Below are positions 6,793-30,325 of a DNA stretch of 45,708 nt, piece by piece (position 1 is the first letter of the stretch; every line of letters begins with the position of its first letter). The DNA is from a virus: the IMG/VR virus record IMGVR_UViG_3300028832_000024; one strand, 5' to 3'. The translations under genes were made by a program, and so were the position numbers. A model generated the notes under the pieces. It did not search any database and was not told the origin of the DNA. It was given only the letters and a program-made list of their open reading frames with translations.

Positions 6793-9309
6793 TTAATGGA
6801 CCCGTACGCCCCGCGACATTGCGTTGTACGGTTTGGTATTCCCGTCGGCAAGTTCCTTTTCGTAAATTCCTGTCAGCCCGTCCGCGTCGTCGTCGTGTTC
6901 GTTCGCGTCGAACTTGCGCAAGAATCCCGTAACGTGCTTGTAAAACGCGGGGTAACGCGTTTCCCACCCGAACGGCATTATTATTTGCTGATTCACAAAC
7001 GGGGCGTTCGTTACGATACGCGATTCTTTGTTTTGGCCTTGATAGAACGGGACCGTTAACGCCCGAATTTTTTTCTTTACGTTTTTTTCGAATTGCGATC
7101 CGCCGTTGTTCGATTCGATCCAAACTTTTTGGACGCCGTTTCCGTTGATCAGTCGCGGAACGGTTACTGTCGTAACGTCCGTTGATTCGTCCGTAAATTC
7201 AATATCCGTTATTAGCGCAAACAACAACGGTTCGAACCGCTTGTTATGTTCGTTCCAAATTTGGTTTTCCGAACGGACTATATCGTACGACGCCGCGAAC
7301 AAAAAGTCGTCCCCTTGATCCGCGACGTCCACGTAACAACCCGAACGGATATATTGGCCGTAATCATCTTTGTTTACCCACGTCTTGAACGGTTGATACA
7401 ACAACGCGGTTGCATCGCCGGGGTTTCCTTGATACAAGCACTGAAAACCCACGGGGTCCAAATTTTTAGCGGCCAACAGGCGTTCCAAAGAATGACGCGC
7501 GGGCCACAACGGTTGGCCCGCTTCGCGCCCGTCTATTTCCGTGGGCGTCCCCGTCTTGATCGCTTCGAAATTTACCAATACCCACGCGCCCGCCGGTATG
7601 TTGTCGAAATCTTCCCACTTTTCGGCGACGATTACCTGTTCGGATTCAAGTATTTTGCCGATTATATCTTCGGGGTGCCAACGGGTAAATACAATCAGTT
7701 GTTGCGAATCGTTATGCAATCGTGTTTGTGCAACCTTTGTGTACCAATCCCACGCCGTCGCCCGAATTTGCGGGCTATTCGCTTCTAACGAATCCTTATA
7801 AAGATCGTCGAAAATCATAACGTCAACGGTTTTAGACGTCAGCGAACCGCCACGGCCCACAACGCGCAACGATCCTGTATGGTTTACGATTTCGAAAACG
7901 TCCGAATTCCGCAAATAGTTGTTTGCAACAGTTACGACGTTAGATCCATTCAAACAAGTTTCGGGGAATACGCCGTGGTATTTCTCGTTATCAATCAGTC
8001 TTTGAACGTCGCGGTTAAAGTCTTTGGCAATTGTAGCCGCGTACGAACAAATGCAAATGCGCAAATCGGGATAAAGCCCCAACATTTCGGCCGGTAGGAA
8101 TCTACTTGAACCTTGCGAATTATGCGTCGGTACAAGTTCATACCCCGCAAGATAAATCCCGCCGTCAACCTCAATACAATTTACGTTCGCTTCGCCGTAT
8201 TCCGTTACTGAATCAATGAAAAACCGCTTTTTATCGGGCCGATCCGAACACGTTTTATTTTCCAAACGCAATTGTTTTCGCGGAATATCGAAGATCCTGT
8301 CGGTGCGATCCGGATTAAACATAATACGTACTTTGTTCCCGCAATCTTTACCGTATAGGCGGGCAACGTATTTATGCCGTGTTGCTTTATAACCCAACGA
8401 TCGCAACAGTAAGTAAACGTCGTTTGCCAAAATGCCGTCCTTTTGACAAAATTCGCACGTCCCACGGGTATTTATATAACCGTCCGTGTCCATTAATCCG
8501 CGCAATAATTCGCGCCTACTTTCAGCGTCGGCCAATAAATATTCGGCGGGTATATGTTTATTGAACAAAACGCCAATTTCCCGCAATTTCCGTGTTTCAA
8601 GTCCTTTCAAATGAACACGAAAAGCGGTTTTGTCTTTTTTAATTTCTATCGCATATTGCCGTAAATGTTCTATATCTTCCGCGCCGCAAGAAATCCATTT
8701 ATCGAATTTGTTGCCGTCGCCCAACCATACGCCCAATAAATACGGATCAATAGGCAAAACCCGTTTCGGCATTTCGATAATTGCATCGGCGGGAATAAAA
8801 GGATTGCGCCGATTCCGTTTCGCAAAAATGTTTTGCGTTTCTACAATTTCACGAACACGGCCTTTGTGGTTATCGTGGTCAGCATATACGACCCATTCGT
8901 GTTGACGGGCGGCAATCAAACTGAACCCGTCGGCAAAATTCACGAATTGCGATTCACATTTATATACCCCGCTATTCCATTTTACGCGCCGTGGTTTCCC
9001 GTCCCCGCCGAAAACAAAATCGCCGGGCTTTAAATCCCCGTGTCGCTTCCAACCTGTTGTCGTAAGTACGGGCGTATCGTATCGCAATGCCTTGCCGTGT
9101 TGCGGCGGGGCCTGTATAATCAGTTTCCGTATTTGTTGCTTTGCGAACTTGTCTAATACCCTGTAATACGCTTTGTGAAACGGCGTTGGTTGGAAATTTG
9201 GGTCCATATATTGCGCGAACCATAAAAGATTCCGCCGCGCCCCCTCTTGCAAAAACAATTCGGGGTGCGTGGCCAATGTTCGCGTTATTTGCATCGTGTC
9301 AACGTCCAT
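6793..9309 (-). CDS. terL: Terminase large subunit interrupted by an intein (514-aa extein + 324-aa intein)
   Basis: Removing residues 74..397 restores the Walker A loop QAPPQHGK|S. Walker B-like VDVMIFDDLYKD follows, with a nuclease-sized C-terminal half. The gene sits upstream of the portal. Confidence 0.85.
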   Translation of the reverse strand: MDVDTMQITRTLATHPELFLQEGARRNLLWFAQYMDPNFQPTPFHKAYYRVLDKFAKQQIRKLIIQAPPQHGKALRYDTPVLTTTGWKRHGDLKPGDFVFGGDGKPRRVKWNSGVYKCESQFVNFADGFSLIAARQHEWVVYADHDNHKGRVREIVETQNIFAKRNRRNPFIPADAIIEMPKRVLPIDPYLLGVWLGDGNKFDKWISCGAEDIEHLRQYAIEIKKDKTAFRVHLKGLETRKLREIGVLFNKHIPAEYLLADAESRRELLRGLMDTDGYINTRGTCEFCQKDGILANDVYLLLRSLGYKATRHKYVARLYGKDCGNKVRIMFNPDRTDRIFDIPRKQLRLENKTCSDRPDKKRFFIDSVTEYGEANVNCIEVDGGIYLAGYELVPTHNSQGSSRFLPAEMLGLYPDLRICICSYAATIAKDFNRDVQRLIDNEKYHGVFPETCLNGSNVVTVANNYLRNSDVFEIVNHTGSLRVVGRGGSLTSKTVDVMIFDDLYKDSLEANSPQIRATAWDWYTKVAQTRLHNDSQQLIVFTRWHPEDIIGKILESEQVIVAEKWEDFDNIPAGAWVLVNFEAIKTGTPTEIDGREAGQPLWPARHSLERLLAAKNLDPVGFQCLYQGNPGDATALLYQPFKTWVNKDDYGQYIRSGCYVDVADQGDDFLFAASYDIVRSENQIWNEHNKRFEPLLFALITDIEFTDESTDVTTVTVPRLINGNGVQKVWIESNNGGSQFEKNVKKKIRALTVPFYQGQNKESRIVTNAPFVNQQIIMPFGWETRYPAFYKHVTGFLRKFDANEHDDDADGLTGIYEKELADGNTKPYNAMSRGVRVH
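8119..9090 (-). mobile_element. Intein (324 aa) with LAGLIDADG homing endonuclease, class 3-type signature
   Basis: Block A ALRYDTPVLTTTGWKRHGDL (Ala1 instead of Cys/Ser). Block B ARQHEW (His, then Trp two residues later). Two LAGLIDADG motifs: LLGVWLGDGN and LLRGLMDTDGY. Block F VNCIEVDG (Cys where class 1 inteins have Asp). Block G LVPTHN followed by Ser+1. Confidence 0.85.
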
Positions 9310-17169: not shown

Positions 17170-17188
17170 CGGGAATCGGCCCGGTCCG
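17170..17188 (-). promoter_or_regulatory. Orphan copy of the conserved leader hairpin (no promoter box) between the tRNAs and the next gene
   Basis: cgggaatcggcccggtccg is near-identical to the hairpin in the leaders of promoters P-A (28802..28820) and P-D (17629..17647). Confidence 0.5.
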
Positions 17189-17272
17189 TTTGGGTTGGGT
17201 TTCCTTATCAACTATTCCATTGCGGGCGGTTGTAGTCATTAAATCCCCTTTTGCTGATTTCGGAAACCCTTG

Positions 17273-17354
17273 TACCCCCGCCCGGACTTGAACCGGGACC
17301 CCTGTACGGGACGACATTTTGAGTGTCGCGCGGCTACCTTTTCGCCACGGGGGT
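17273..17354 (-). tRNA. tRNA-Leu(CAA): tRNA-Leu (anticodon CAA), type II with long variable arm
   Basis: Folded by hand. 7-bp acceptor stem ACCCCCG/CGGGGGT, D stem GCG/CGC with a GG loop, anticodon stem CGACA/TGTCG with loop CTCAAAA, 14-nt variable arm, T stem CCCGG/CCGGG with loop TTCAAGT. 82 nt; no encoded CCA. Confidence 0.85.
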
Positions 17355-17360
17355 ATTTTG

Positions 17361-17431
17361 TTGTTGCGTCCGGATTTGAACCGAAACTGTTGGAACCAAA
17401 ATCCAAAGTGCTACCGTTACACCACGCAACA
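17361..17431 (-). tRNA. tRNA-Gln(TTG): tRNA-Gln (anticodon TTG)
   Basis: 7-bp acceptor stem TGTTGCG/CGCAACA, D loop AACGGTA, anticodon stem TTGGA/TCCAA with loop TTTTGGT, T stem TTCGG/CCGGA with loop TTCAAAT. 71 nt. Confidence 0.8.
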
Positions 17432-17628: not shown

Positions 17629-17702
17629 CGGGAACCGGCCCGGTCCGTGGGTTACAACCTTAACCCGACACAAAGGTAAGGATAATTTTTATATTTCCAA
17701 AA
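17629..17702 (-). promoter_or_regulatory. Promoter P-D with conserved two-hairpin leader
   Basis: Minus strand: TTTTGG (17697..17702), 19-nt spacer, TACCTTTG (17671..17678), then hairpins GGGTTAAGGTTGTAACCC and CGGACCGGGCCGGTTCCCG. Confidence 0.65.
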
Positions 17703-19816: not shown

Positions 19817-20703
19817 TATTTGACAATTTCTTTAACGCTTTTCCCCTGTTCAATCAGTCCCGAAAAGATATTTCCCAACGCTTTATGCCGGGCCAAAACG
19901 AACGATCCGTGTTCCAATCGCGGGTCGTTAATCCCGTTTTGCTTCAATTCGTTTACGTCCCCGACCATTCCACGCCGGGCAAAATCGTTGATCGTTCGTT
20001 GCCATACCTGTTTTTGTTCTTCCGGGGTTACGTTTACAGGAACGACCAACCCGTGTTCCGAAAGGATATTCCAAAAAACCAAATCAGTTACCGCCGACGT
20101 ATTCAACCGGCCCGTTTCCCGGAAATCGTCAAACGCTTCGTACAACTCTTTGATCGCTTCGTTGCGATATTCCTGTTTCTTGTCGTCGCCCGGCTTTAAT
20201 TCCGGCGTTTCAACGGCGTCAAACGCCTTTTTAAGCACGGCCCCCCGGCGCATCATATACGCGTCAAGGATTTTGCAAACATATTCGGCGTTGAATTGCT
20301 GATAATGGCCCCGATCGGCCTTTCCGTCCCGGGTACGTGGTAAGTATTCGTCCAATTGGCCGGTTATTGACATTTCAAAGGCCATTCGGAAATCCTTTAA
20401 CGTCAAGTTGGAATAATACCTTTTCAGTATTTCGGCCGTCCGGATTATCAAATATTGGGAATCCGCTTCGTCTTGCACCCTATAACCAACGTCTTTGCAA
20501 ATCCATTTCAAAGCGGTCCGCAATTCGGACGTCAATTCGGCCGGGGTAATTTCGGCGATCGTCTTTGCCGTGGACGCAAGGAACACGGCCCGTTCAACCG
20601 GGGTTAACGCGCCCATAACTGTTGCGTTCCCGACCATTTCCCGGCGCAATGCAACCGGCGATTTCTTGACCGTCGCAACGGCCGTTTCGTTACTGTATTG
20701 CAT
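19816..20703 (-). CDS. Hypothetical replication-module protein (295 aa)
   Basis: ATG ORF downstream of the initiator; no motif recognised. Confidence 0.5.
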   Translation of the reverse strand: MQYSNETAVATVKKSPVALRREMVGNATVMGALTPVERAVFLASTAKTIAEITPAELTSELRTALKWICKDVGYRVQDEADSQYLIIRTAEILKRYYSNLTLKDFRMAFEMSITGQLDEYLPRTRDGKADRGHYQQFNAEYVCKILDAYMMRRGAVLKKAFDAVETPELKPGDDKKQEYRNEAIKELYEAFDDFRETGRLNTSAVTDLVFWNILSEHGLVVPVNVTPEEQKQVWQRTINDFARRGMVGDVNELKQNGINDPRLEHGSFVLARHKALGNIFSGLIEQGKSVKEIVK

Positions 20704-21481
20704 CGCCCATTTCGGTTAAATATTTGATCGCGTCCAATGACAGGCCCGCGCCGCTTGCGCCGTCTTTCCTGTGTAACTTTCCCTTTTCAATATCGCCACG
20801 GATAAAGTTACGGGCCGTTGCAATCCAATCTTTCATTTTCTTGCCCTTTTGCGCCGACCAATCCGCGACGGCGTGGAAATAATACACGATATCCACGTCA
20901 GCGAATTCGGGGGCCTTGAATTCGGCCGCGAATGTATTGAAATCAGCGAACCGCGAATTTTCGAACAGGCAAAGCGATTCGGACGTACGGCGCGGGCGCG
21001 TAACGGTTACAGGAACAAACGACGGATCGGCGGGGAACAAACCGCCGTCGGCGGTATCTTCTATTTTATCGTTAGAATTATCTATCTTATTATTATTCGT
21101 TGCCGTTTCAGCAATACCCCCCGTTGCTATTTCAGCAACGCCCCCGTTGTTGTTTTGATAACGCCCCGTTGCTATTTCAGCAACGCCGTATCTTTTTGCA
21201 ACATAAGTGCAAAACTTGACGCCCGAAAAGAAGATTTCCCGTTTTTCGATCAGTCCACGTTCGATAAGGCGATCAATAATTTTTTTCGCGTTTTGCTTCG
21301 TTACATTCAGCGCGGAAGCGACGTAATTTAACGAACCACGGAATTCGGTTTCGTCGTCCTGTGTAAAACCGTATATCAGCGAATAGCACAAAAGTTCGTT
21401 ACCCGATAATCCAATTTCAACGATTGCGAATCCGGGAACGGTTATATAGTTGTCTATCTTAAATTTGCGTGGTTGTTCCAT
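20690..21481 (-). CDS. Replication initiator / replisome-organiser-like winged-helix protein (putative)
   Basis: Winged-helix-like LNYVASALNVTKQNAKKIIDRLIERGLIEKRE. The gene contains an internal AT-rich tract and iterated palindromes. Start taken at ATG 21481 (MEQPRKF...). The track ORF extends to GTG 21538 through a terminator-like hairpin. Confidence 0.5.
   Translation of the reverse strand: MEQPRKFKIDNYITVPGFAIVEIGLSGNELLCYSLIYGFTQDDETEFRGSLNYVASALNVTKQNAKKIIDRLIERGLIEKREIFFSGVKFCTYVAKRYGVAEIATGRYQNNNGGVAEIATGGIAETATNNNKIDNSNDKIEDTADGGLFPADPSFVPVTVTRPRRTSESLCLFENSRFADFNTFAAEFKAPEFADVDIVYYFHAVADWSAQKGKKMKDWIATARNFIRGDIEKGKLHRKDGASGAGLSLDAIKYLTEMGDAIQ
21099..21187 (-). repeat. Three iterated palindromic boxes (GTTGCT-ATTTC-AGCAAC) inside the initiator gene, next to an AT-rich tract: candidate replication origin
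   Basis: An exact 24-mer ccccgttgctatttcagcaacgcc occurs at 21119..21142 and 21164..21187, with a degenerate copy at 21099..21115. The AT-rich tract ttctattttatcgttagaattatctatcttattattatt lies at 21058..21097. Confidence 0.55.
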
Positions 21482-21484
21482 AAC

Positions 21485-21574
21485 AAAAAAACGCCCGTGG
21501 CTTTCCTTTGGTTGTGGCTGAAACCATTGTACTTGCACACGGGCATTATATTTCCCTTTTAACGTTCAGCCACA
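21485..21574 (-). promoter_or_regulatory. Structured leader with interleaved helices and a terminator-like hairpin plus T7 abutting the initiator start codon
   Basis: RNA sense: TGTGGCTGAA (21565..21574 rc) ... GCCCGTG (21538..21544 rc) ... TTCAGCCACA (21513..21522 rc) ... CACGGGC (21493..21499 rc) TTTTTTT (21485..21491 rc). Elements 1:3 pair over 10 bp and 2:4 over 7 bp in an interleaved arrangement. Confidence 0.5.
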
Positions 21575-24593: not shown

Positions 24594-24824
24594 TTATTCG
24601 TTGGAAAGCCCGAAAAGGAAATCGGCGGAACAACCTGTCATTTCGCAAATGATATTAACCCATTCGGGATTGATTCGGGCCGTTACGCCATTACATAACG
24701 ACGTCATATTCACTTGTTGCGCAACGGTCGTGGAATCGGGCCACAATCGGGCCGCGATATCCTTTTTCAAAACCTTTTTGCCCTGTTCTTTGGCGCGGGC
24801 GATCGCCTGTTCAATTCGCATCAT
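24594..24824 (-). CDS. XRE/Cro-type helix-turn-helix transcriptional regulator
   Basis: KKDIAARLW...VAQQVN...ICEMTGCSADFLFGLSNE is typical of an HTH_3 C-terminus. Early position behind P-B. Confidence 0.6.
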   Translation of the reverse strand: MMRIEQAIARAKEQGKKVLKKDIAARLWPDSTTVAQQVNMTSLCNGVTARINPEWVNIICEMTGCSADFLFGLSNE

Positions 24825-25264
24825 AATTCGTTTTTGCTTTTAATAATTTCGCCACAAATCGGGCAATGATATACGTAATAATCAATAACGTAGGAATTCG
24901 GCGTATAATAATCGCCGTCTTTCAGTTCGTGGCCGATCGTTTCGTTGAATTTCAGTTCCCCGCCACATTTCGGGCAATCGCCGTTCCCCCTAATAGTAAG
25001 GCCACAAAAGGCGTCAAACACGTCGGCCGTAATGGAATGGGATTCGTCCCCGTACAGGAATTTCGACAAAACGGCGCATACGTCCGAAACATATTGCGGG
25101 CCGGTGGCGATCAGCACGGATTCGCCCCAATTGTCGGGCGTGTCCTCAATCATTCCCGCGTCAATAAACCTTTTGCAAAGGTTTTCAGCAACCATATTAA
25201 GATCAACAGGGCCGATAATTTCGGACGCGATTCGTTGTAAGTTTTCGTCAATCTTGAATTTCAT
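24821..25264 (-). CDS. Hypothetical protein with C-terminal zinc ribbon
   Basis: CPKCGG...(30 aa)...CPICGE pair of CxxC knuckles. Confidence 0.5.
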   Translation of the reverse strand: MKFKIDENLQRIASEIIGPVDLNMVAENLCKRFIDAGMIEDTPDNWGESVLIATGPQYVSDVCAVLSKFLYGDESHSITADVFDAFCGLTIRGNGDCPKCGGELKFNETIGHELKDGDYYTPNSYVIDYYVYHCPICGEIIKSKNEL

Positions 25265-25268
25265 AACC

Positions 25269-25466
25269 TTAAATCAAATGTTGTTCTCTTACACACAAAT
25301 AACCGGCGTCGCCATATACCCAATATTTCACGATAGGGCGTCCGCTTGTTCCGATAGTAAGTTCCATTCGAACAACCTTGCCCGACGCGATAGACGGATT
25401 TTCACTATTACGCGGATATTTGAATTTCACGACGTCGCCGATTCCGTATTTGGTTTTAATTTCCAT
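25269..25466 (-). CDS. Hypothetical small protein (65 aa), first gene behind P-B
   Basis: ATG ORF 17 nt after the conserved leader. Confidence 0.5.
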   Translation of the reverse strand: MEIKTKYGIGDVVKFKYPRNSENPSIASGKVVRMELTIGTSGRPIVKYWVYGDAGYLCVREQHLI

Positions 25467-25483
25467 ATTGCTTTGTTTTTATT

Positions 25484-25559
25484 CGGGAACCCGCCCGATC
25501 GGTTGGATTCTTCCCCGAATCCACAGGCAAAGTTAGTAATTAATTTTTAACTACCAAAA
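25484..25559 (-). promoter_or_regulatory. Promoter P-B with two-hairpin leader
   Basis: Minus strand TTTTGG (25554..25559), 19-nt spacer, TAACTTTG (25528..25535), then hairpins GGATTCGGGGAAGAATCC and CGATCGGGCGGGTTCCCG. Confidence 0.6.
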
Positions 25560-25741
25560 TTTTTTCCATGATTTTTATAACTTTTTTTGTGCGCCCTGTT
25601 TGGTGGGCGTCAAAATAGGCATTTTCCAACCAACTTATTTTGTCGGAATTTTCGATTTAAGACACTTTCGGCGTTCGGACGATACCTATTTCATTTTCGG
25701 AAAGAAACGCGCTATACGGGCCGTTTTGCGGGCCAAACGGA

Positions 25742-25978
25742 CAAAGACAAAGATCGGCCGACGTTTCGCAACATTGGCCGACCCCTTTTCTTATCTTATG
25801 AAACCTTTTGGCACGACAAATATAGAAAAACCGCCCGTGTTTCGCAACAGGGACGGCCAAATAACACTAAAACGTAGTAACCTATGAATTCGTGGCAAAT
25901 ATATAAAAACGGGGCGTATTTCGCAACAAGCCCCGTTCCAACCACTTAAAACTATTTGATATGCACACTACAAAGATA
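25742..25978 (-). repeat. Array B: three tandem hairpin / T-tract / TATATTTG units (terminator-promoter modules)
   Basis: Hairpins at 25910..25935, 25831..25856 and 25754..25781, each with loop GTTGCGAAA(T/C). The stems differ between copies but remain complementary. -7 boxes lie at 25971..25978, 25896..25903 and 25817..25824, and the last unit is degenerate. Spacing is 77-79 nt. Confidence 0.7.
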
Positions 25979-25982
25979 GTGT

Positions 25983-26348
25983 TTATTTCATCGTTTCCGC
26001 GTTAAGGTGTTTATGGATCAGCGTATAAACGGCGGTAATCGCGGCTTTGTTTTCGTTGTATTCCTGTTGGGTGCAATCGGCCACGAAATTTTCGAATCGC
26101 TTGTATAAGTCTTGCAATTCGGTATGTGTCATTGTGTACCGACGGCAACCCGATTCGTCAATTACGCCCATTCTTTTGTATCCGTGTTCAACCATAACGG
26201 CGTCCGCGTCGCCAAAAGAAACATTTGCGCGAAATTTTTTAGATCCGTTTATATCGCGGTAAAATGCGTAATATAACGAACGTTTTCCGGCCTGTTTATC
26301 AATATACCCGTACTGTCGGGAAACGGGGTTGTAATAGTTGTATTTCAT
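25983..26348 (-). CDS. Hypothetical protein (121 aa)
   Basis: ATG ORF; no motif recognised. Confidence 0.5.
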   Translation of the reverse strand: MKYNYYNPVSRQYGYIDKQAGKRSLYYAFYRDINGSKKFRANVSFGDADAVMVEHGYKRMGVIDESGCRRYTMTHTELQDLYKRFENFVADCTQQEYNENKAAITAVYTLIHKHLNAETMK

Positions 26349-26392
26349 AACAGTTTGGATTTATGGCCCCGCTTGCGCGGGGCGTTATTTAT

Positions 26393-26638
26393 TTATGCAA
26401 GTTCGATTCCAACGTAAGTATATTCCAATTCTTGATCGTATTCGGAACCGTCAAATTTTTCGCCAAAGAAATTTTTGATTTTGGAAACTGCGTCGGTATT
26501 GTTGCCCTCAATTTCAACAGTAAGATAGATTCCGCCTTTTTTGCGACCCGCTAATACGGTAACGTCAACACTTGCACCCGCGATTGCACCAATTTTGGCG
26601 TTCATCATTTTTTTAAGAAGATCCGTTTTCATTTTCAT
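26393..26638 (-). CDS. Hypothetical protein (81 aa), first gene behind P-C
   Basis: ATG ORF 13 nt after the leader hairpin. Confidence 0.5.
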   Translation of the reverse strand: MKMKTDLLKKMMNAKIGAIAGASVDVTVLAGRKKGGIYLTVEIEGNNTDAVSKIKNFFGEKFDGSEYDQELEYTYVGIELA

Positions 26639-26651
26639 TGCGTTTTTTGTT

Positions 26652-26727
26652 CCGAAAACCCGTTCGGTCGGTCGGGTTAGTTCCTTAACCCACTACAAAG
26701 GTACGACAATTTTTCTAATTTCCAAAA
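26652..26727 (-). promoter_or_regulatory. Promoter P-C with two-hairpin leader
   Basis: Minus strand TTTTGG (26722..26727), 19-nt spacer, TACCTTTG (26696..26703), then GGGTTAAGGAACTAACCC (26674..26691) and CCGAACGGGTTTTCGG (26652..26667). Confidence 0.6.
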
Positions 26728-26833
26728 GTTTTTCCTATATTTTTCGAAAAAAGTTGCATTTTTTTTGATTTTCCCGAAATAATACGCCCCGATCGGGGTA
26801 TATTTGTATTGAACAACCCAAAAAATAATCGTT

Positions 26834-26977
26834 ATGCCTGTAATGAAAACGCAAGGTGGTTGGCGTTGGGGCCAATCCGGGAAAGTTTACCCGACAAAGG
26901 AACAGGCCGAAAGACAGGGACGCGCGATTTACGCGTCGGGGTACAGGGAAAAGCCCACGCAATCCAAAAAGAAATAG
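26834..26977 (+). CDS. Small basic protein (47 aa); the only plausible plus-strand gene
   Basis: MPVMKTQGGWRWGQSGKVYPTKEQAERQGRAIYASGYREKPTQSKKK. It is preceded by TATATTTG (26799..26806) and followed by hairpins and a plus-strand terminator. Divergent from P-C. Confidence 0.45.
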   Translation: MPVMKTQGGWRWGQSGKVYPTKEQAERQGRAIYASGYREKPTQSKKK

Positions 26978-27055
26978 GGAATTATCGGGTTTTCCGATTT
27001 TTCCCTATCTTTGTGGTGTCTTTTTACCACGTATCGCCCTTTCGGTAATTTGACG

Positions 27056-27100
27056 CCGCGCCCGCCCACGGATCAGTCCGCCGACGGGTGCGGTTTTTTT
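27056..27100 (+). terminator. Plus-strand intrinsic terminator at the convergence point
   Basis: CCGCGCCCG (27056..27064) pairs with CGGGTGCGG (27085..27093), 9 bp with one G-U pair, followed by TTTTTTT (27094..27100). It abuts the stop codon of the converging minus-strand gene. Confidence 0.6.
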
Positions 27101-27387
27101 CATCGAAGATTCGGCGTTATCTTCTTTCCCCCGCAAGATTCGGCCAACTGTACGATTATTGCGTCGTTTTCCGCGTCTTTCGGCGCGACAACTTGCGCGA
27201 TTTCGCCCATTATATCGAACAGGTAGTAATCGGGTCGCGGATCGGCCAACATTAGTTCATAATGGAAATATTCGGGGCCGGTGTCCGAAAGGAATGCGAA
27301 CGCCAAAACCTTATAATCGCGGACGCCCTCTTTTTCCATTACGGCGCGGTATTCTTCGCCCTTTATGCTTTTGCTATTCCGTGCCAT
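27100..27387 (-). CDS. Hypothetical early protein (95 aa)
   Basis: ATG ORF; last gene of the P-A operon. Confidence 0.5.
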   Translation of the reverse strand: MARNSKSIKGEEYRAVMEKEGVRDYKVLAFAFLSDTGPEYFHYELMLADPRPDYYLFDIMGEIAQVVAPKDAENDAIIVQLAESCGGKKITPNLR

Positions 27388-27610
27388 TGCTGAAAAAATC
27401 TTTGCGGTAAAACTGTATTGCCAATTGCGCGGCCCTGTTAGGCGTGGGCGCGGTTATTTGGTACGTCTTGCGCGGGGCGTGGTTGTTTTGCCCGAACCCA
27501 CGGCAAAGACAGTCGTAAATCGTGTATGGGTTCCCGCGTTCGGGTTTGTCCAACGGGCTTTGCGAAACCTCTACAACCGACAACGGATTTGAAAACCTGT
27601 ACTTTTGCAT
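27374..27610 (-). CDS. Hypothetical early protein (78 aa)
   Basis: ATG ORF in the co-directional block. Confidence 0.5.
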   Translation of the reverse strand: MQKYRFSNPLSVVEVSQSPLDKPERGNPYTIYDCLCRGFGQNNHAPRKTYQITAPTPNRAAQLAIQFYRKDFFSNGTE

Positions 27611-27613
27611 AAC

Positions 27614-27910
27614 CTATTTGTTTTTAATCCTTGATTCATAAACGGCCCGCCGTTCCCCGTCCTTGCGTGGTACGCCTTTTTTGGTCAGCGCAACGCCATA
27701 ATAGAAAATAGATATTTCCAGATAAACTGTAAACGATACCTGTTCAACGCGGATCGTATCCATTCCGTCGGTAACAATATCCCCTATCTTGTACTTTGCG
27801 TTTTCCGCAACATATTGTCTATATGCCAAATGTTTTGCGTTGTCCGCATCGTGTTCGATCGCCTTAATTCTTTCGTCTAATTCTTGCTTTGTCATAACTA
27901 AATAAGTCAT
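27614..27910 (-). CDS. Hypothetical early protein (98 aa)
   Basis: ATG ORF in the co-directional block. Confidence 0.5.
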   Translation of the reverse strand: MTYLVMTKQELDERIKAIEHDADNAKHLAYRQYVAENAKYKIGDIVTDGMDTIRVEQVSFTVYLEISIFYYGVALTKKGVPRKDGERRAVYESRIKNK

Positions 27911-28003
27911 TCAAAATTCAACAAATACCATAAAGAAAACGAACAATGCACCCAATACGGCCATTGGCCAACGTTCTTTAACGTCTTCCCAAATTTGTTT
28001 CAT
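27911..28003 (-). CDS. Mini membrane peptide (30 aa)
   Basis: Hand-translated: MKQIWEDVKERWPMAVLGALFVFFMVFVEF. Its stop abuts the next ATG (TGAATG). Confidence 0.3.
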   Translation of the reverse strand: MKQIWEDVKERWPMAVLGALFVFFMVFVEF

Positions 28004-28004
28004 A

Positions 28005-28247
28005 TTACATTGATTCTATTTGTTTAACAATCGTTCCCGGACGCCAAAAACCACGTTTTTTTGCGTATTTCGTGGCGGTTTTTTCATCTTTGGCGAAAAC
28101 CTGTTTTCCGTTTACGTCCCAACAGGGAAGATTATTTTTCGGGATTGGTTTTACATATACTTTTGACGTCCCCGTGTCAAACAATTGTTTATCGGCGGAC
28201 GCCGCAAGCATCGCCAACCCCGCTAATAATTTAAATTGTTTATACAT
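28005..28247 (-). CDS. Secreted or lipoprotein-like small protein (80 aa)
   Basis: N-terminal signal-like MYKQFKLLAGLAMLAASA. Confidence 0.45.
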   Translation of the reverse strand: MYKQFKLLAGLAMLAASADKQLFDTGTSKVYVKPIPKNNLPCWDVNGKQVFAKDEKTATKYAKKRGFWRPGTIVKQIESM

Positions 28248-28271
28248 AACTTTTTGATTTTATGGGACGGT

Positions 28272-28535
28272 TTACTGTCCCTGTATTTTTACTTTCTTAT
28301 GCGTTGCGAATGTATGCCCGAAAGCGGTAATTTCCGCGTGGCAAAGATTTTCGTACAGGAACGACAACATTGTATCATCGACGGGAATGCTTCCGATAAG
28401 AACGGGCCTTTTGTACGCAACAATAGCGGATATTAAAACGCTTGCCGTCTTGACTGTCAATTTGTCATATTCGGCGGAATAGGTTTCGCCCATTAACTTT
28501 TCAATGTAGTTCAATTGTTTTTCAGTTGCTTTCAT
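28272..28535 (-). CDS. Hypothetical early protein (87 aa from ATG 28535)
   Basis: First ATG (MKATEKQLNYIEKL...) of track ORF 28272..28625. Confidence 0.45.
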   Translation of the reverse strand: MKATEKQLNYIEKLMGETYSAEYDKLTVKTASVLISAIVAYKRPVLIGSIPVDDTMLSFLYENLCHAEITAFGHTFATHKKVKIQGQ

Positions 28536-28548
28536 AATTCGGGATTGA

Positions 28549-28782
28549 TTAAGCGGCGTAAAAAGAAATTTTGATACCACGACGTAATTTGCAAACGCAT
28601 TTATCATCAAGCGAACCGAACGCACGATCTAAAAGGCGGTTGCAAAGTTCCAAATCAGCGACGATTTTAACAAGCCCCGAAACGCCAACAAGCGTGTTAA
28701 TCTTTTTCCCGTCGAACAGGCCCGAAACCTTGATTTTGTAATTAGCGTTGATTTCGCGGGTGGTGTATTTAAGCGTTGCCAT
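28549..28782 (-). CDS. Hypothetical early protein (77 aa), first gene behind P-A
   Basis: ATG ORF 19 nt after the conserved leader. Confidence 0.5.
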   Translation of the reverse strand: MATLKYTTREINANYKIKVSGLFDGKKINTLVGVSGLVKIVADLELCNRLLDRAFGSLDDKCVCKLRRGIKISFYAA

Positions 28783-28801
28783 AACTGTTTGTTTTTTGTA
28801 T

Positions 28802-28876
28802 CGGGAATCGGCCCGATCCGTTGGGTTAGTTCCTTAACCCGCTACAAAGGTAGGTATTTATTTTTAATTACCAAAA
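28802..28876 (-). promoter_or_regulatory. Promoter P-A with two-hairpin leader
   Basis: Minus strand TTTTGG (28871..28876), 19-nt spacer, TACCTTTG (28845..28852), then GGGTTAAGGAACTAACCC (28823..28840) and CGGATCGGGCCGATTCCCG (28802..28820). Confidence 0.65.
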
Positions 28877-29035
28877 CTTTTTCCATAATTTTTGCAAAAA
28901 AAGTTCGAAAAAAGTTATTTTCGGCGATTTTTCGATTTGTGGCCATATTTCGTGGCGGACGGTAAGTTGTACCATTTTCGGGGGAAAGTGTCTTAAATCC
29001 AAAATAAACGCCCTTTGCGGGGACGATATGAACAA

Positions 29036-29339
29036 CGGCCACATTTCGCAACGGGGCCGCGTTCGATTGGTTAGTTTGTAAGAAAAGAAGATTATGATTC
29101 AATGCAAATATAATAAAAAACGGTCGCGTTTCACAACGGGACCGCCCTTTAAGCAATGAAAAAACTATTTCGTACGGCAAAGATACAAAAAACGACCGTA
29201 TTTCACAACACGGCCGTTTCTCTCTTAATCCTATAACCTATATACTGTTCGATGCAAATATAAATAAAACGGGTGGATTTCGCAACCGACCCGTTAGCAA
29301 ACATAATCAATTATGAGTATTTTAAGCGTTACAAATATA
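29036..29339 (-). repeat. Array A: four tandem hairpin / T-tract / TAT(A/C)TTTG units (terminator-promoter modules)
   Basis: Hairpins at 29270..29293, 29193..29216, 29121..29144 and 29036..29059, each with loop GTTG(C/T)GAAA(T/C) and covarying stems. -7 boxes lie at 29332..29339, 29255..29262, 29178..29185 and 29105..29112. Spacing is 72-85 nt. Confidence 0.7.
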
Positions 29340-29342
29340 CGA

Positions 29343-29957
29343 TTATTTTTCGATAACGACGTGTTCGACCCCTAAAATTTTGGTATGCGGGTTCTGGCTT
29401 ACCACGTCCACGCGCCGATCCTGTACGCGCTTCGTTTTCCACAGGAAACCCAAAAATCGCTTATACTTAACCGTTTCGGCCAACAACAGGGAATCCCGAT
29501 TGGCCAACGTTCCCGTAAACTGATCTTTGGTCAACAGTCCGTCAAAGTCGAACCACGCGTCCCCGCAATGGACCGCCACGGCGGGCGTAACGATCGAATC
29601 CCGTACAATGATAACCGTATCCCGTGGCGTGGCCTTTAAGTCAATGATCGTTTGCGATTGGGTCGTATTTACCGCCGATAAGTCCCTGTTGCGGGCTTTA
29701 AGTTCGCGGATCAATTCGGCGTCGTCGGCGCGGAATCGTTCGAATTCCTTTATTGTCAGTTGCAAGGATTCGACCCGCGCGGCGTTCATCGAATCGCGGA
29801 TCTTGAACAATTCCACGTCGGAAAGCAACGCGGCCGTATTCCCTTTGTACCTGTCGCGTTCGGCCGTCAACTGTTCAATTCTTTTGTTGGTCAGTATAAC
29901 GGCAATTGCGACCGCCACAATACAGGCGATCGCAATTAACAGTTTCCGCGCGTCCAT
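29343..29957 (-). CDS. Type II membrane-anchored coiled-coil protein (spanin-like candidate)
   Basis: From ATG 29957 (TAATG overlap): MDARKLLIAIACIVAVAIAVILT (TM anchor), then a coiled-coil RIEQLTAERDRYKGN...IKEFERFRADDAELIRELKARNRDL, then a globular C-terminus. Last gene of the lysis block. Confidence 0.4.
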   Translation of the reverse strand: MDARKLLIAIACIVAVAIAVILTNKRIEQLTAERDRYKGNTAALLSDVELFKIRDSMNAARVESLQLTIKEFERFRADDAELIRELKARNRDLSAVNTTQSQTIIDLKATPRDTVIIVRDSIVTPAVAVHCGDAWFDFDGLLTKDQFTGTLANRDSLLLAETVKYKRFLGFLWKTKRVQDRRVDVVSQNPHTKILGVEHVVIEK

Positions 29958-30325
29958 TATGCGCCGATATGGGTTTTGTCCGTACTGTTGTACGCCCAAC
30001 CGCTTTCGGAATGGTCGTAAGACACGGTTTCCACGTTGGCCGCGTCAGCGTAAGTAAGACACAATCCGCCGTTTTCCGCGTCTTTGTAGGAAACGACGTA
30101 CAAGTGTTGCGCGGTTCCTGTTTTCTTTGCCACTTTGTCGCCAACGTTCAGCGCGTCCAACTGTTCGTCGGTTAGCGCGGTAATGTCGGCAACCTCTAAC
30201 GGAAGCGCGGAACCCGCAAGGGCGGAAAGGATCGCGCCCAACGCGCCGCCCAAATCAATTTGGTTGCCCTGTCCGGCAATCTTTTCGGCGATCAACGCCA
30301 ATAATTCGTCCTGTTTCATATTCAC
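29957..30325 (-). CDS. Hypothetical protein (122 aa)
   Basis: ATG ORF within the lysis block; no motif recognised. Confidence 0.5.
   Translation of the reverse strand: MNMKQDELLALIAEKIAGQGNQIDLGGALGAILSALAGSALPLEVADITALTDEQLDALNVGDKVAKKTGTAQHLYVVSYKDAENGGLCLTYADAANVETVSYDHSESGWAYNSTDKTHIGA

What the first reader, a model, noticed from the sequence alone, without database searches (positions are those of the whole stretch)
25742..25978. Array B: a second, paralogous array of the same units upstream of early promoter P-B
The same architecture recurs 3.3 kb away, directly after the stop of gene 25983.

The sequence of elements is:
- TATCTTTG at 25971..25978.
- Hairpin CGGGGC-TTGTTGCGAAATAC-GCCCCG (25910..25935), T5, then TATATTTG (25896..25903).
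- Hairpin CCGTCC-CTGTTGCGAAACAC-GGGCGG (25831..25856), T5, then TATATTTG (25817..25824).
- Hairpin TCGGCC-...GTTGCGAAAC...-GGCCGA (25754..25781) with a degenerate box.

Spacing is 77-79 nt. The inter-hairpin segments share only short purine-rich patches with array A (ATAGGTTA, AAGA.AAAGGG). The units therefore look like diverged paralogues rather than recent copies.

Both arrays sit in the same context: gene end, array, about 170 nt, then a strong promoter with the conserved leader. This suggests a modular regulatory cassette.
Basis: seen in the sequence. Interest (0 to 1): 0.8.

Follow-up and report, generated by a model that had tools for sequence, protein, structure and literature searches.

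The report
Tandem mini-genes for phage small RNAs
A phage of Bacteroidota carries two stacks of tiny promoter-to-terminator units that probably each make a ~65-nt RNA ending in a hairpin with an identical tip; this small-RNA-like family is not in Rfam, and its job is still unknown.

Summary
On the minus (coding) strand, 25978→25742 holds three head-to-tail units. They are paralogous to four units at 29339→29026.

Each unit has three parts:
- a Bacteroidota -7 promoter box (TAnnTTTG);
- a 30-40 nt unstructured variable segment;
- a GC-stem hairpin with an invariant tip G-UU-GNGA-AA-Y, followed by a T-run.

Across 35 distinct copies from related metagenomic phages the stems change but stay paired (92% of cells paired against 66% in shuffles), while the tip never changes. 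In 43 of 46 copies the unit's own box ends 37-52 nt before the tip. Where another box follows, it always lies 20-21 nt after GTTG, so each terminator overlaps the next promoter.

Copy number varies from 0 to 4 among relatives. Cultured relatives have none. Rfam has no match.

Best reading: arrays of small-RNA genes built from composite terminator/promoter cassettes, analogous to the PeSL cassettes of T4-like phages and to Bacteroides sRNAs such as GibS and FopS. I rate it a new variant of a known kind, of moderate interest.

The parts
25971..25978 (-). Unit B0 -7 promoter box TATCTTTG, 4 nt after the stop codon of ORF 25983-26348
   Evidence: The same placement directly after the stop codon is seen in relative L009.
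25936..25970 (-). Unit B0 variable 5' segment, predicted to be single-stranded
25905..25935 (-). Unit B0 hairpin CGGGGC-TT-GTT-GCGA-AAT-AC-GCCCCG plus T5 (terminator-like). The GTTG at its tip lies 20 nt upstream of the next box.
   Evidence: -18.6 kcal/mol; 50 bits
25896..25903 (-). Unit B1 -7 box TATATTTG
25857..25895 (-). Unit B1 variable 5' segment. It contains TTCATAGGTTA and is the paralogue of A1.
   Evidence: (z 3.3-3.6)
25826..25856 (-). Unit B1 hairpin CCGTCC-CT-GTT-GCGA-AAC-AC-GGGCGG plus T5
   Evidence: 48.2 bits
25817..25824 (-). Unit B2 -7 box TATATTTG
25782..25816 (-). Unit B2 variable 5' segment. It contains TTTCATAAG and is the paralogue of A2.
   Evidence: (z 3.4-3.5)
25754..25781 (-). 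Unit B2 hairpin TCGGCC-AAT-GTT-GCGA-AAC-GTC-GGCCGA. It has no clean T-run and is the terminal unit.
   Evidence: -24.5 kcal/mol, z -4.05; 33.7 bits
25742..25749 (-). Degenerate box TGTCTTTG, one mismatch to TAnnTTTG, 19 nt after the GTTG of B2
   Evidence: read directly
25654..25668 (-). 15-mer AAAGTGTCTTAAATC in the conserved stretch between the array and the promoter. An inverted copy lies at 28985-28999 downstream of array A.
   Evidence: 2 matches against 0.06 expected. Conserved in relatives.
25528..25559 (-). Strong promoter P-B: TTTTGGTAGTTAAAAATTAATTAC-TAACTTTG (TTTG-N19-TAnnTTTG)
   Evidence: 4 such promoters in the window against 0.03 expected
25467..25527 (-). Conserved leader with two hairpins, upstream of the ATG of ORF 25269-25466
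   Evidence: hairpin 2 covaries across 17 leaders
29026..29339 (-). Paralogous array A, four units. Boxes at 29332-29339, 29255-29262, 29178-29185 and 29105-29112. Hairpin cores at 29278-29286, 29201-29209, 29129-29137 and 29044-29052.
29001..29025 (-). Extra terminator-like hairpin CGTCCCCGCAAAGGGCG plus TTTATTTT, closing array A

Best explanation
Array B, like its paralogue array A, is a head-to-tail stack of miniature transcription units.

Each unit starts at a host-type (sigma-ABfr) -7 box TAnnTTTG. It would be transcribed into 30-40 nt of unstructured, unit-specific sequence. It ends in a GC-stem hairpin with the invariant tip G-UU-GNGA-AA-Y plus a U-run, which is an intrinsic terminator. 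The units are packed so tightly that the hairpin and T-run of one unit occupy the -33 to -7 spacer of the next promoter, with the GTTG of the tip at the -33 position. Each junction is therefore a composite terminator/promoter.

The predicted products are three RNAs from array B and four from array A, each about 60-75 nt. Host RNA polymerase would make them from the start of infection. The same hairpins also insulate the upstream operon from the strong promoter downstream.

I infer that these RNAs are trans-acting small RNAs. They would pair through their single-stranded 5' segments (recurrent motifs UCAUA and AUAGGUU) with translation-start regions, most likely of host mRNAs. I also infer that the invariant tip is read by a protein not yet identified.

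Shown here: the anatomy, hairpin covariation, box-to-hairpin linkage, junction spacing, paralogy, and copy-number variation among relatives. Inferred: transcription, termination, trans-action, targets and timing.
For: Hairpin under selection
- In 35 distinct copies, 8 apical columns are invariant (G T T G. G A A A).
- The 12-bp helix is 91.9% paired against 66.1% in shuffles (0 of 500 shuffles reach it).
- There are 89 double-change cells against 24.7 expected. Slid controls give 36-51% pairing.

Each hairpin has its own promoter box
- The box ends 37-52 nt before the core in 43 of 46 copies.
- This includes solitary units, where the box directly follows a stop codon and no ORF lies between box and hairpin.

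Junction geometry
- GTTG to the next TAnnTTTG is 20 nt (16 cases) or 21 nt (9 cases) in all 25 junctions.
- This matches the TTTG/TAnnTTTG promoter described for Bacteroides (PMC7366714).
- It also matches GTTG-N19-TATCTTTG inside the B. fragilis II-C repeat (PMC6390457; repeat-embedded promoters, PMC10309648).

Folding
- Each predicted RNA has an open 5' segment and one strong terminal hairpin of -16 to -24 kcal/mol. This is the architecture reported for GibS and FopS (PMC7366714, PMC11697453).

5' segments are not random
- B1/A1 and B2/A2 are reciprocal best matches.
- TCATA occurs in 12 of 24 non-redundant 5' segments against 1.6 expected (z 8.9).
- ATAGGT(T)ATAG..TTAAGAG persists in units whose stems, and in L164 even the tip, have been replaced.

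Other
- The opposite strand shows no consistent ORF.
- No Rfam family matches.
Against: - There are no transcript data of any kind. Promoter and terminator activity rest on motif and fold alone.
- B2 and A3 lack a clean U-run.
- First-unit promoters have no TTG at -33.
- No convincing target was found among 68 phage translation-start regions. The only lead is A3 against the start of ORF 24821-25264 (E -23.1, 0 of 40 shuffles, many tests).
- The host genome is unknown, so host targets could not be searched.
- The same hairpin + T-run + box composite is also used at ordinary gene boundaries (L021; L144). The short RNAs could therefore be by-products of stacked cassettes.
- Motif sharing among 5' segments may partly reflect common descent.
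- Strict arrays occur on only about 11 IMG/VR contigs, and copy number drops to 0-1 in many relatives. The arrays are therefore dispensable.
Confidence: 0.5

Rival explanations
1. These are stacked composite terminator/promoter cassettes, the Bacteroidota-phage counterpart of the PeSL cassettes of T4-like phages. Their job would be purely cis-acting. They would terminate the upstream operon several times over, re-initiate, and provide short homologous sites for the recombination that shuffles neighbouring genes. The ~65-nt transcripts would be by-products with no function of their own.
For: - Fixed 20-21 nt spacing from hairpin tip to next box.
- The same composite terminates a 146-aa ORF in L021 and drives an ORF in L144 (TATATTTGCATCATG).
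- Copy number ranges from 0 to 4 among close relatives.
- Mosaic breakpoints flank the cassettes between the window and its closest relative.
- PeSLs are described as promoter plus stem-loop, often with the stem-loop between -35 and -10. They act as terminators and as recombination sites (PMC2839356, PMC4122927).
Against: - PeSLs flank ORFs. Here up to four cassettes follow one another with only ~40 nt between them.
- Solitary units keep a promoter box directly upstream of a terminator with nothing to express but the short RNA.
- 5' segments keep shared motifs while the stems turn over.
- A 9-10 nt invariant tip is too short for homologous recombination, and a generic terminator does not need it.
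Confidence: 0.25
2. This is an attenuation/antitermination device. The invariant GNGA-tipped hairpins would be recognition sites, like boxB for lambda N, for a phage or host protein. That protein would switch the hairpins between terminating and read-through. It would thereby time transcription from the unit promoters or the upstream operon into the genes behind P-B and P-A.
For: - The tip is invariant while the stems covary, which is the signature of a sequence-specific reader.
- The tip is equally conserved in 21 units that have no following box, so a -33 role cannot explain it.
- The terminal hairpins B2 and A3 lack clean U-runs, and B2 is followed by a near-consensus box. Read-through into the conserved ~200-nt stretch is therefore plausible.
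Against: - The downstream operons have their own strong promoters with AT-rich upstream regions. They do not need read-through.
- No boxA-like partner element and no candidate RNA-binding protein was found among the early ORFs.
- Two of the four strong promoters have no array.
Confidence: 0.1
3. These are decoy or anti-defence RNAs. Many copies of one hairpin, or of a CRISPR-repeat-like 5'-GUUGUGA motif, would titrate a host protein. Candidates include Cas9/tracrRNA of a type II-C system, in the manner of RNA anti-CRISPRs and viral scaRNAs, or a global RNA-binding protein.
For: - Multicopy invariant hairpin.
- The unit period of 72-85 nt is close to the ~77 nt period of the 47-nt II-C repeat plus a spacer.
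- The core GTTGTGA equals the first 7 nt of the B. fragilis II-C repeat (PMC6390457).
- Phage-encoded guide-like RNAs against Cas9 have been reported (bioRxiv 10.64898/2026.06.01.729453).
Against: - Similarity to the II-C repeat is limited to GTTGTGA and the -7 box, which are the promoter elements. The remaining ~30 nt do not match.
- The motif sits at the tip of a closed hairpin, not at the start of a tracrRNA-pairing stretch.
- The host and its CRISPR repeats are unknown.
- No anti-CRISPR genes were recognised nearby.
Confidence: 0.05
4. This is a DNA-level element. The repeated GTTGYGAAA would be a binding site (iteron or operator) for a phage DNA-binding protein, or part of a replication origin.
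For: - The window's origin-like iterons (21098-21187, CGTTGCTATTTCAGCAACG) and those of phage BKO1-3 (GGTTG[CG]GAAATCC) contain GTTG..GAAAT-like strings.
- A conserved 15-mer and phased T-tracts lie just downstream of both arrays.
Against: - Compensatory changes keep the stems paired. This is expected for RNA, or for extruded single strands, but not for duplex protein sites.
- The iterons differ from the core by an inserted base and are palindromic, unlike the core.
- The 72-85 nt spacing is irregular.
- The cumulative GC skew is monotonic, with no inflection at 25-29 kb.
Confidence: 0.03

Closest known systems
PeSL (promoter-early stem-loop) composite terminator/promoter cassettes of T4-like phages (PMC2839356, PMC4122927)
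   Same: - Short repeated intergenic cassettes that fuse a host-type early promoter with a stem-loop terminator.
- The stem-loop often lies between the two promoter elements.
- Many diverged copies occur per genome.
- They are associated with gene gain, loss and mosaicism.
   Different: - PeSLs flank ORFs, use sigma-70 -35/-10 elements and have poly-G/poly-C stems without a fixed loop.
- Here the cassettes are stacked with only ~40 nt of non-coding spacer between them.
- They use the Bacteroidota TAnnTTTG box.
- They carry an invariant 9-10 nt tip.
- Recombination activity was not tested.
Bacteroides intergenic small RNAs GibS and the multicopy FopS family (PMC7366714, PMC11697453)
   Same: - Own sigma-ABfr promoter.
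[quoted passage not shown]
- Multicopy paralogues. FopS was also seen in a tailed phage.
- The known mode of action is pairing around start codons. Here the 5' segments are enriched in UCAUA, which is complementary to UAUGA.
   Different: - No sequence or Rfam similarity.
- FopS copies are dispersed and share a conserved seed with ordinary terminators. Here the copies are tandem, the seed region is the variable part, and the terminator tip is the invariant part.
- Expression and targets are untested here.
Type II-C CRISPR arrays with a promoter inside every repeat (PMC10309648; B. fragilis 47-nt repeat, PMC6390457)
   Same: - One promoter per ~77-nt period.
- GTTG-N19-21-TAnnTTTG geometry.
- A variable ~30-40 nt segment between constant parts.
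   Different: - The constant part here is only 9-10 nt plus the box. The stems differ between units.
- Each unit ends in its own terminator.
- No cas genes or tracrRNA were recognised.
- The 5' segments matched nothing in GenBank phages.
Lambda-type nut/boxB-N antitermination (from my own knowledge, not from a tool result)
   Same: A small hairpin with a GNRA-type loop whose sequence, rather than its stem, is conserved and is read by a protein on the nascent RNA.
   Different: - BoxB is not itself a terminator and is paired with boxA downstream of an early promoter.
- No N-like protein or boxA was identified here.

Membership tests
Bacteroides-type intergenic sRNA gene (GibS/FopS kind) | Own promoter of the sigma-ABfr type (TAnnTTTG at -7) | tested here: met
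   All three B units and all four A units have the box. It ends 37-52 nt before the core in 43 of 46 copies. This is motif evidence only.
Bacteroides-type intergenic sRNA gene (GibS/FopS kind) | Rho-independent terminator at the 3' end | tested here: met
   GC-stem hairpins of -16 to -24 kcal/mol followed by T5-6 in B0, B1, A0, A1 and A2. B2 and A3 have interrupted T-runs.
Bacteroides-type intergenic sRNA gene (GibS/FopS kind) | Single-stranded 5' seed that pairs with target mRNAs near the start codon | tested here: inconclusive
   The 5' segments are predicted to be open and are enriched in TCATA. No convincing phage target was found. The host is unknown.
Bacteroides-type intergenic sRNA gene (GibS/FopS kind) | Detectable transcript of the defined size | not testable with these tools
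   No RNA data are available.
FopS/GibS family proper | Sequence or covariance-model homology (R1 seed; model deposited in Rfam) | tested here: not met
   Rfam gathering and E-value scans return only tRNAs and sub-threshold terminator-like noise.
PeSL-like composite terminator/promoter cassette | Stem-loop physically nested in or abutting a host-type promoter | tested here: met
   The tip's GTTG lies 20-21 nt before the next TAnnTTTG in 25 of 25 junctions. The 3' arm and T-run fill the spacer.
PeSL-like composite terminator/promoter cassette | Cassettes flank small ORFs in plastic regions | tested here: not met
   In the window the inter-cassette segments are 31-44 nt with no consistent ORF on either strand. 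Flanking of ORFs is seen only in L021 and L144.
PeSL-like composite terminator/promoter cassette | Recombination between cassettes causes indels or mini-circles | tested here: inconclusive
   Copy number of 0-4 and mosaic breakpoints near the cassettes fit this. No breakpoint was mapped inside a cassette.
CRISPR array (type II-C) or phage mini-array | Near-identical direct repeats of 36-47 nt | tested here: not met
   Only 8 columns are invariant and the stems differ between units.
CRISPR array (type II-C) or phage mini-array | Spacers that match foreign DNA; adjacent cas genes or tracrRNA | tested here: not met
   Neither ~500-nt array region matched GenBank phages, apart from a 39-nt promoter hit. 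The large and flanking ORFs scanned against PHROGs and Pfam show phage structural, replication and unknown functions only.
Type III toxin-antitoxin RNA array (ToxI-like) | Near-identical ~36-nt tandem repeats under one promoter, with a toxin gene downstream | tested here: not met
   The period is 72-85 nt, each unit has its own promoter and terminator, and the repeats are diverged.
Lambda nut/boxB antitermination site | BoxA + boxB downstream of an early promoter, plus an N-like arginine-rich protein | not tested
   Only the GNRA-type loop resemblance was noted. No boxA or N search was possible.

The most novel reading that the evidence does not exclude
The units encode a family of guide-like phage RNAs. 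Each would have a fast-evolving 5' segment that selects a target and an invariant 3' hairpin 'handle' (G-UU-GNGA-AA-Y). A dedicated phage or host protein would read the handle. The arrays would grow and shrink by unit duplication, with one promoter per unit. This would amount to a programmable RNA-guided host-takeover or anti-defence system in Bacteroidota phages.
Probability: 0.07. Interest if true: 0.85.

Novelty: new variant of a known kind. Interest (0 to 1): 0.55.

Why it matters
- Small-RNA biology of Bacteroidota is young, and phage-encoded regulators in this phylum are almost unexplored.
- If these units are expressed, one 45-kb phage genome would carry seven small-RNA genes in two paralogous arrays. 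Their hallmark, a variable 5' segment and an invariant terminator tip, is the reverse of the usual conserved-seed pattern.
- The compact terminator/promoter junction would also be useful as a part for engineering Bacteroides.
- The units mark plastic points in these phage genomes.
- If the RNAs are only by-products, the finding still documents a PeSL-like cassette system outside the T4-like phages.

Tried and rejected
- **Small ORFs on the opposite strand.** I tested whether CAT in the 5' segments marks an ATG. There is no consistent frame, length or presence across 46 units. Rejected.
- **Known RNA families.** The Rfam gathering scan and a permissive scan of 25400-29400 gave only tRNAs and terminator-like noise.
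- **Phage targets of the 5' segments.** An RNAduplex scan against 68 translation-start regions gave nothing beyond shuffled controls, except the weak A3 lead. A whole-genome scan timed out. The exact complement of the A3 motif occurs only at its own locus. The complement of AUAGGUUA is absent from minus-strand transcripts.
- **Loose two-core pattern scan of IMG/VR.** A stricter pattern replaced it.
- **Bacterial copies.** The one genome scan found only two phage-like contigs binned into MAGs labelled Acutalibacteraceae. This says nothing reliable about the host.
- **Similarity of the alpha-type 5' segment to leader hairpin 1.** Not significant (z < 2).
- **Origin/iteron idea.** The resemblance to the iterons is superficial, and there is no GC-skew inflection.
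- **GenBank phages.** Neither cassette has a match. Cultured relatives BKO1-3, AS73P1 and PDS1 have a single ordinary terminator at the syntenic site and no model hit above 20 bits.

Full report
**Context**

The 45.7-kb window looks like a complete siphovirus-type genome. PHROGs identifies a tape-measure protein, portal and large terminase. Pfam identifies an amidase and a Mom-family protein. Nearly all long ORFs lie on the minus strand.

The portal is 66-68% identical to those of phages of Bacteroides, Alistipes and Parabacteroides, and about 48% identical to the B40-8/B124-14 group. No GenBank phage matches at the DNA level. The promoters are of the Bacteroidota type, so the host is almost certainly in the Bacteroidota.

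On the coding strand, array A follows the last gene after the lysis module (ORF 29343-29999). Array B follows the last gene of the next block of small ORFs (ORF 25983-26348).

**Check of the observation**

- TATCTTTG at 25978-25971, 4 nt after the stop codon.
- Hairpin 25935-25910, T5, then TATATTTG at 25903-25896.
- Hairpin 25856-25831, T5, then TATATTTG at 25824-25817.
- Hairpin 25781-25754, followed by TCTTTGTCTTTG. This includes a one-mismatch box, TGTCTTTG (25749-25742).

Core-to-core spacing is 79 and 76 nt.

The pattern is far beyond chance:

- GTTGYGAAA occurs 10 times against 2.35 expected, and 7 of the 10 lie in the two arrays.
- A covariance model of the hairpin finds exactly seven hits of 33.7-50 bits in the window. 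The next best hit is 18.6 bits.
- The regions 25467-25982 and 28783-29342 align along their whole length.
- The variable segments pair up in order: B1 with A1 (z 3.3-3.6) and B2 with A2 (z 3.4-3.5). A multi-unit cassette was therefore duplicated as a block and then diverged.

**What a unit is**

The 'box' TAnnTTTG is the -7 element of the primary Bacteroidota sigma factor (PMC7366714). The inner part of each 'loop' is itself paired, as G-UU-[GNGA]-AA-Y. Each hairpin is therefore an 11-12 bp stem capped by a GNRA-type tetraloop, often with one internal mismatch.

From the window, IMG/VR relatives of the flanking genes, and pattern scans, I collected 35-46 distinct copies.

- Eight apical columns are invariant.
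- The stems differ completely in sequence but stay paired. 91.9% of cells are paired against 66.1% in shuffles (0 of 500 shuffles reach this value).
- There are 89 double-change cells against 24.7 expected. Slid controls give 36-51% pairing.
- The window and its closest relative differ by a compensatory pair in A0: GGGTCG/CCACCC against GGGCCG/CCGCCC.

The box belongs to the hairpin downstream of it, not to the one upstream.

- Its own box ends 37-52 nt before the core in 43 of 46 copies.
- This holds for solitary units, where the box sits directly after a stop codon and nothing but ~45 nt and the hairpin follows.
- Conversely, 21 hairpins have no box after them.

Predicted folds show an open 5' segment of 28-35 nt and one strong terminal hairpin followed by U-runs. 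The repeating unit is thus a promoter-to-terminator mini-gene for an RNA of about 60-75 nt.

**Junction design**

Wherever a box follows a hairpin, it lies 20 nt (16 cases) or 21 nt (9 cases) after the GTTG of the tip. The strong promoters in this genome have TTTG-N19-TAnnTTTG. The B. fragilis II-C CRISPR repeat has GTTG-N19-TATCTTTG (PMC6390457), and II-C repeats carry their own promoters (PMC10309648).

The tip therefore sits at the -33 position of the next promoter, and the 3' arm plus T-run form the spacer. Each junction is a composite terminator/promoter.

The same composite is used at ordinary gene boundaries in two relatives. In L021 the first hairpin has no box of its own and terminates a 146-aa ORF. 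In L144 the last box drives an ORF. This is the logic of the PeSL cassettes of T4-like phages (PMC2839356, PMC4122927).

**Distribution**

- At the site syntenic with array A, relatives carry 0-4 units. At the site of array B they carry 0-3.
- Some relatives carry a different small unit in second position.
- The cultured relatives BKO1-3 and AS73P1 have one ordinary terminator at the syntenic site. BKO1-3, AS73P1 and PDS1 have no model hit above 20 bits.
- A strict two-unit pattern occurs in only 14 stretches on about 11 IMG/VR contigs.
- A specific 22-nt hairpin pattern occurs in the genome collection only on two phage-like contigs binned into MAGs.
- Rfam has nothing.
- Two of the four strong promoter/leader modules in the window have no array.

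**Are the short RNAs functional?**

For:

- Solitary units conserve a promoter whose only product is the short RNA.
- The 5' segments are open.
- TCATA occurs in 12 of 24 non-redundant 5' segments against 1.6 expected (z 8.9). Its complement, UAUGA, contains a start codon. GibS and FopS act by pairing around start codons (PMC7366714, PMC11697453).
- The motif ATAGGT(T)ATAG..TTAAGAG persists in units whose stems, and in L164 even the tip, have been replaced.

Against:

- There are no expression data.
- No convincing phage target was found.
- The host is unknown.
- Shared descent may explain part of the motif sharing.
- The cassettes also function at gene boundaries.

I put 0.5 on functional small-RNA gene arrays built from composite cassettes, and 0.25 on cis-acting cassettes whose RNAs are by-products.

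**What remains unexplained**

The 9-10 nt tip is invariant in every copy, including the 21 copies with no promoter behind it. A -33 role explains only TTG. A generic terminator needs no fixed loop. This points to a sequence-specific reader of the tip, most likely on the RNA.

That is the basis for two low-probability readings: antitermination (0.1) and decoy RNA (0.05). It is also the basis for the most novel case, guide-like RNAs with a constant handle (0.07).

**Rejected alternatives**

A duplex-DNA binding-site or origin reading is unlikely. The stems covary, the true iterons lie at 21098-21187 and differ from the core, and the GC skew has no inflection here. Opposite-strand micro-ORFs are rejected.

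**Verdict**

The arrays are better described as stacks of promoter-to-terminator mini-genes than as upstream repeats of the early promoter.
- The closest known systems are PeSL cassettes (architecture) and Bacteroides GibS/FopS small RNAs (likely mode of action). The arrays are not members of either family by sequence or by all defining features.
- I rate this a new variant of a known kind, with interest 0.55.

Noticed in passing
window 17671-17702, 25528-25559, 26696-26727, 28845-28876 (minus strand) and the ~60 nt downstream of each; also 17170-17183: - A strong promoter module, TTTTGG[AT]A..TA[AC]CTTTG, occurs four times against 0.03 expected.
- Each is followed by a conserved leader with two hairpins: GGGTTAAGG..AACCC, and a 5-bp stem with loop CCGGTT or CCGATT.
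- The second hairpin shows compensatory changes across 17 leaders.
- The second-hairpin motif also occurs after the tRNAs at 17170-17183.
- This is probably a shared translational or regulatory element of the early operons.
   Followed up: partly
window 25654-25668 (minus) and 28985-28999 (plus): - The identical 15-mer AAAGTGTCTTAAATC occurs once downstream of each array, in opposite orientations (2 matches against 0.06 expected).
- In relatives it is part of a conserved stretch..GGTACAAGTTATCGTCCG..AAGTGTCTTAAATCGAA..AAAATAACTT.., about 100 nt upstream of the strong promoter.
- It is a candidate operator or binding site.
   Followed up: partly
window 21098-21187: - Four tandem 23-nt iterons with a palindromic core, CGTTGCTATTTCAGCAACG, lie inside ORF 20690-21538 (weak MarR-type helix-turn-helix hit).
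- This is a likely replication origin.
- Phage BKO1-3 has analogous GGTTGGAAAATCCAACC iterons inside its gp13 (L001 7960-8070).
   Followed up: partly
window 17272-17431 (minus): Two adjacent tRNA genes, tRNA-Leu(CAA) and tRNA-Gln(UUG). Alistipes phage AS73P1 also carries a tRNA-Gln(ttg).
   Followed up: no
window 26735-27100: - This stretch has no convincing minus-strand ORF.
- On the plus strand a TATATTTG box (26799-26806) abuts the hairpin CCCCGATCGGGG. ORFs of 65-79 aa follow (26809-27053).
- It could be the only plus-strand gene or an antisense transcript in an otherwise one-strand genome.
   Followed up: no
L014, L016, L017, L019, L025, L036, L037, L158 (about 60-150 nt after the homologue of ORF 29343-29999): A different small unit takes the place of units 2-4. 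It consists of a box (or GATATTTG), then the hairpin CCGACCGATTCTTATACGCAACAATAGGTTGTCGG, then the terminator CCGTCCCGATTGGGGCGGTTTTTT. It shares the ATAGGTT motif with the alpha-type units.
   Followed up: partly
window 29061-29100 against 25240-25290 (minus): The 5' segment of unit A3 (GAAUCAUAAUCUU...) can pair with AAGGUUAUGAAAUUC across the start codon of ORF 24821-25264, a zinc-ribbon-like protein. RNAduplex gives -23.1 kcal/mol, and 0 of 40 shuffles do as well, but many comparisons were made.
   Followed up: partly
L144 1-600 (IMGVR_UViG_3300021255_001320): About 430 nt with no obvious ORF follow a double box (TATTTTTGctTATATTTG) and end at a GTTGTGAAA hairpin. There is no Rfam match. 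This could be a larger non-coding RNA in an unrelated, AT-richer phage.
   Followed up: no
window 6793-9309 (minus): The large-terminase ORF is 838 aa, against about 517 aa in BKO1-3. Residues 50-400 and 400-823 each hit terminase or P-loop PHROGs separately. This may be a fusion or an insertion.
   Followed up: no
window 28845-28883 against MT135379.1 (Microvirus sp., porcine): The only GenBank phage hit to the array A region is 39 nt of the strong promoter, 89.7% identical, in a gut microvirus. The promoter type appears to be shared among phages that presumably infect Bacteroidota.
   Followed up: no
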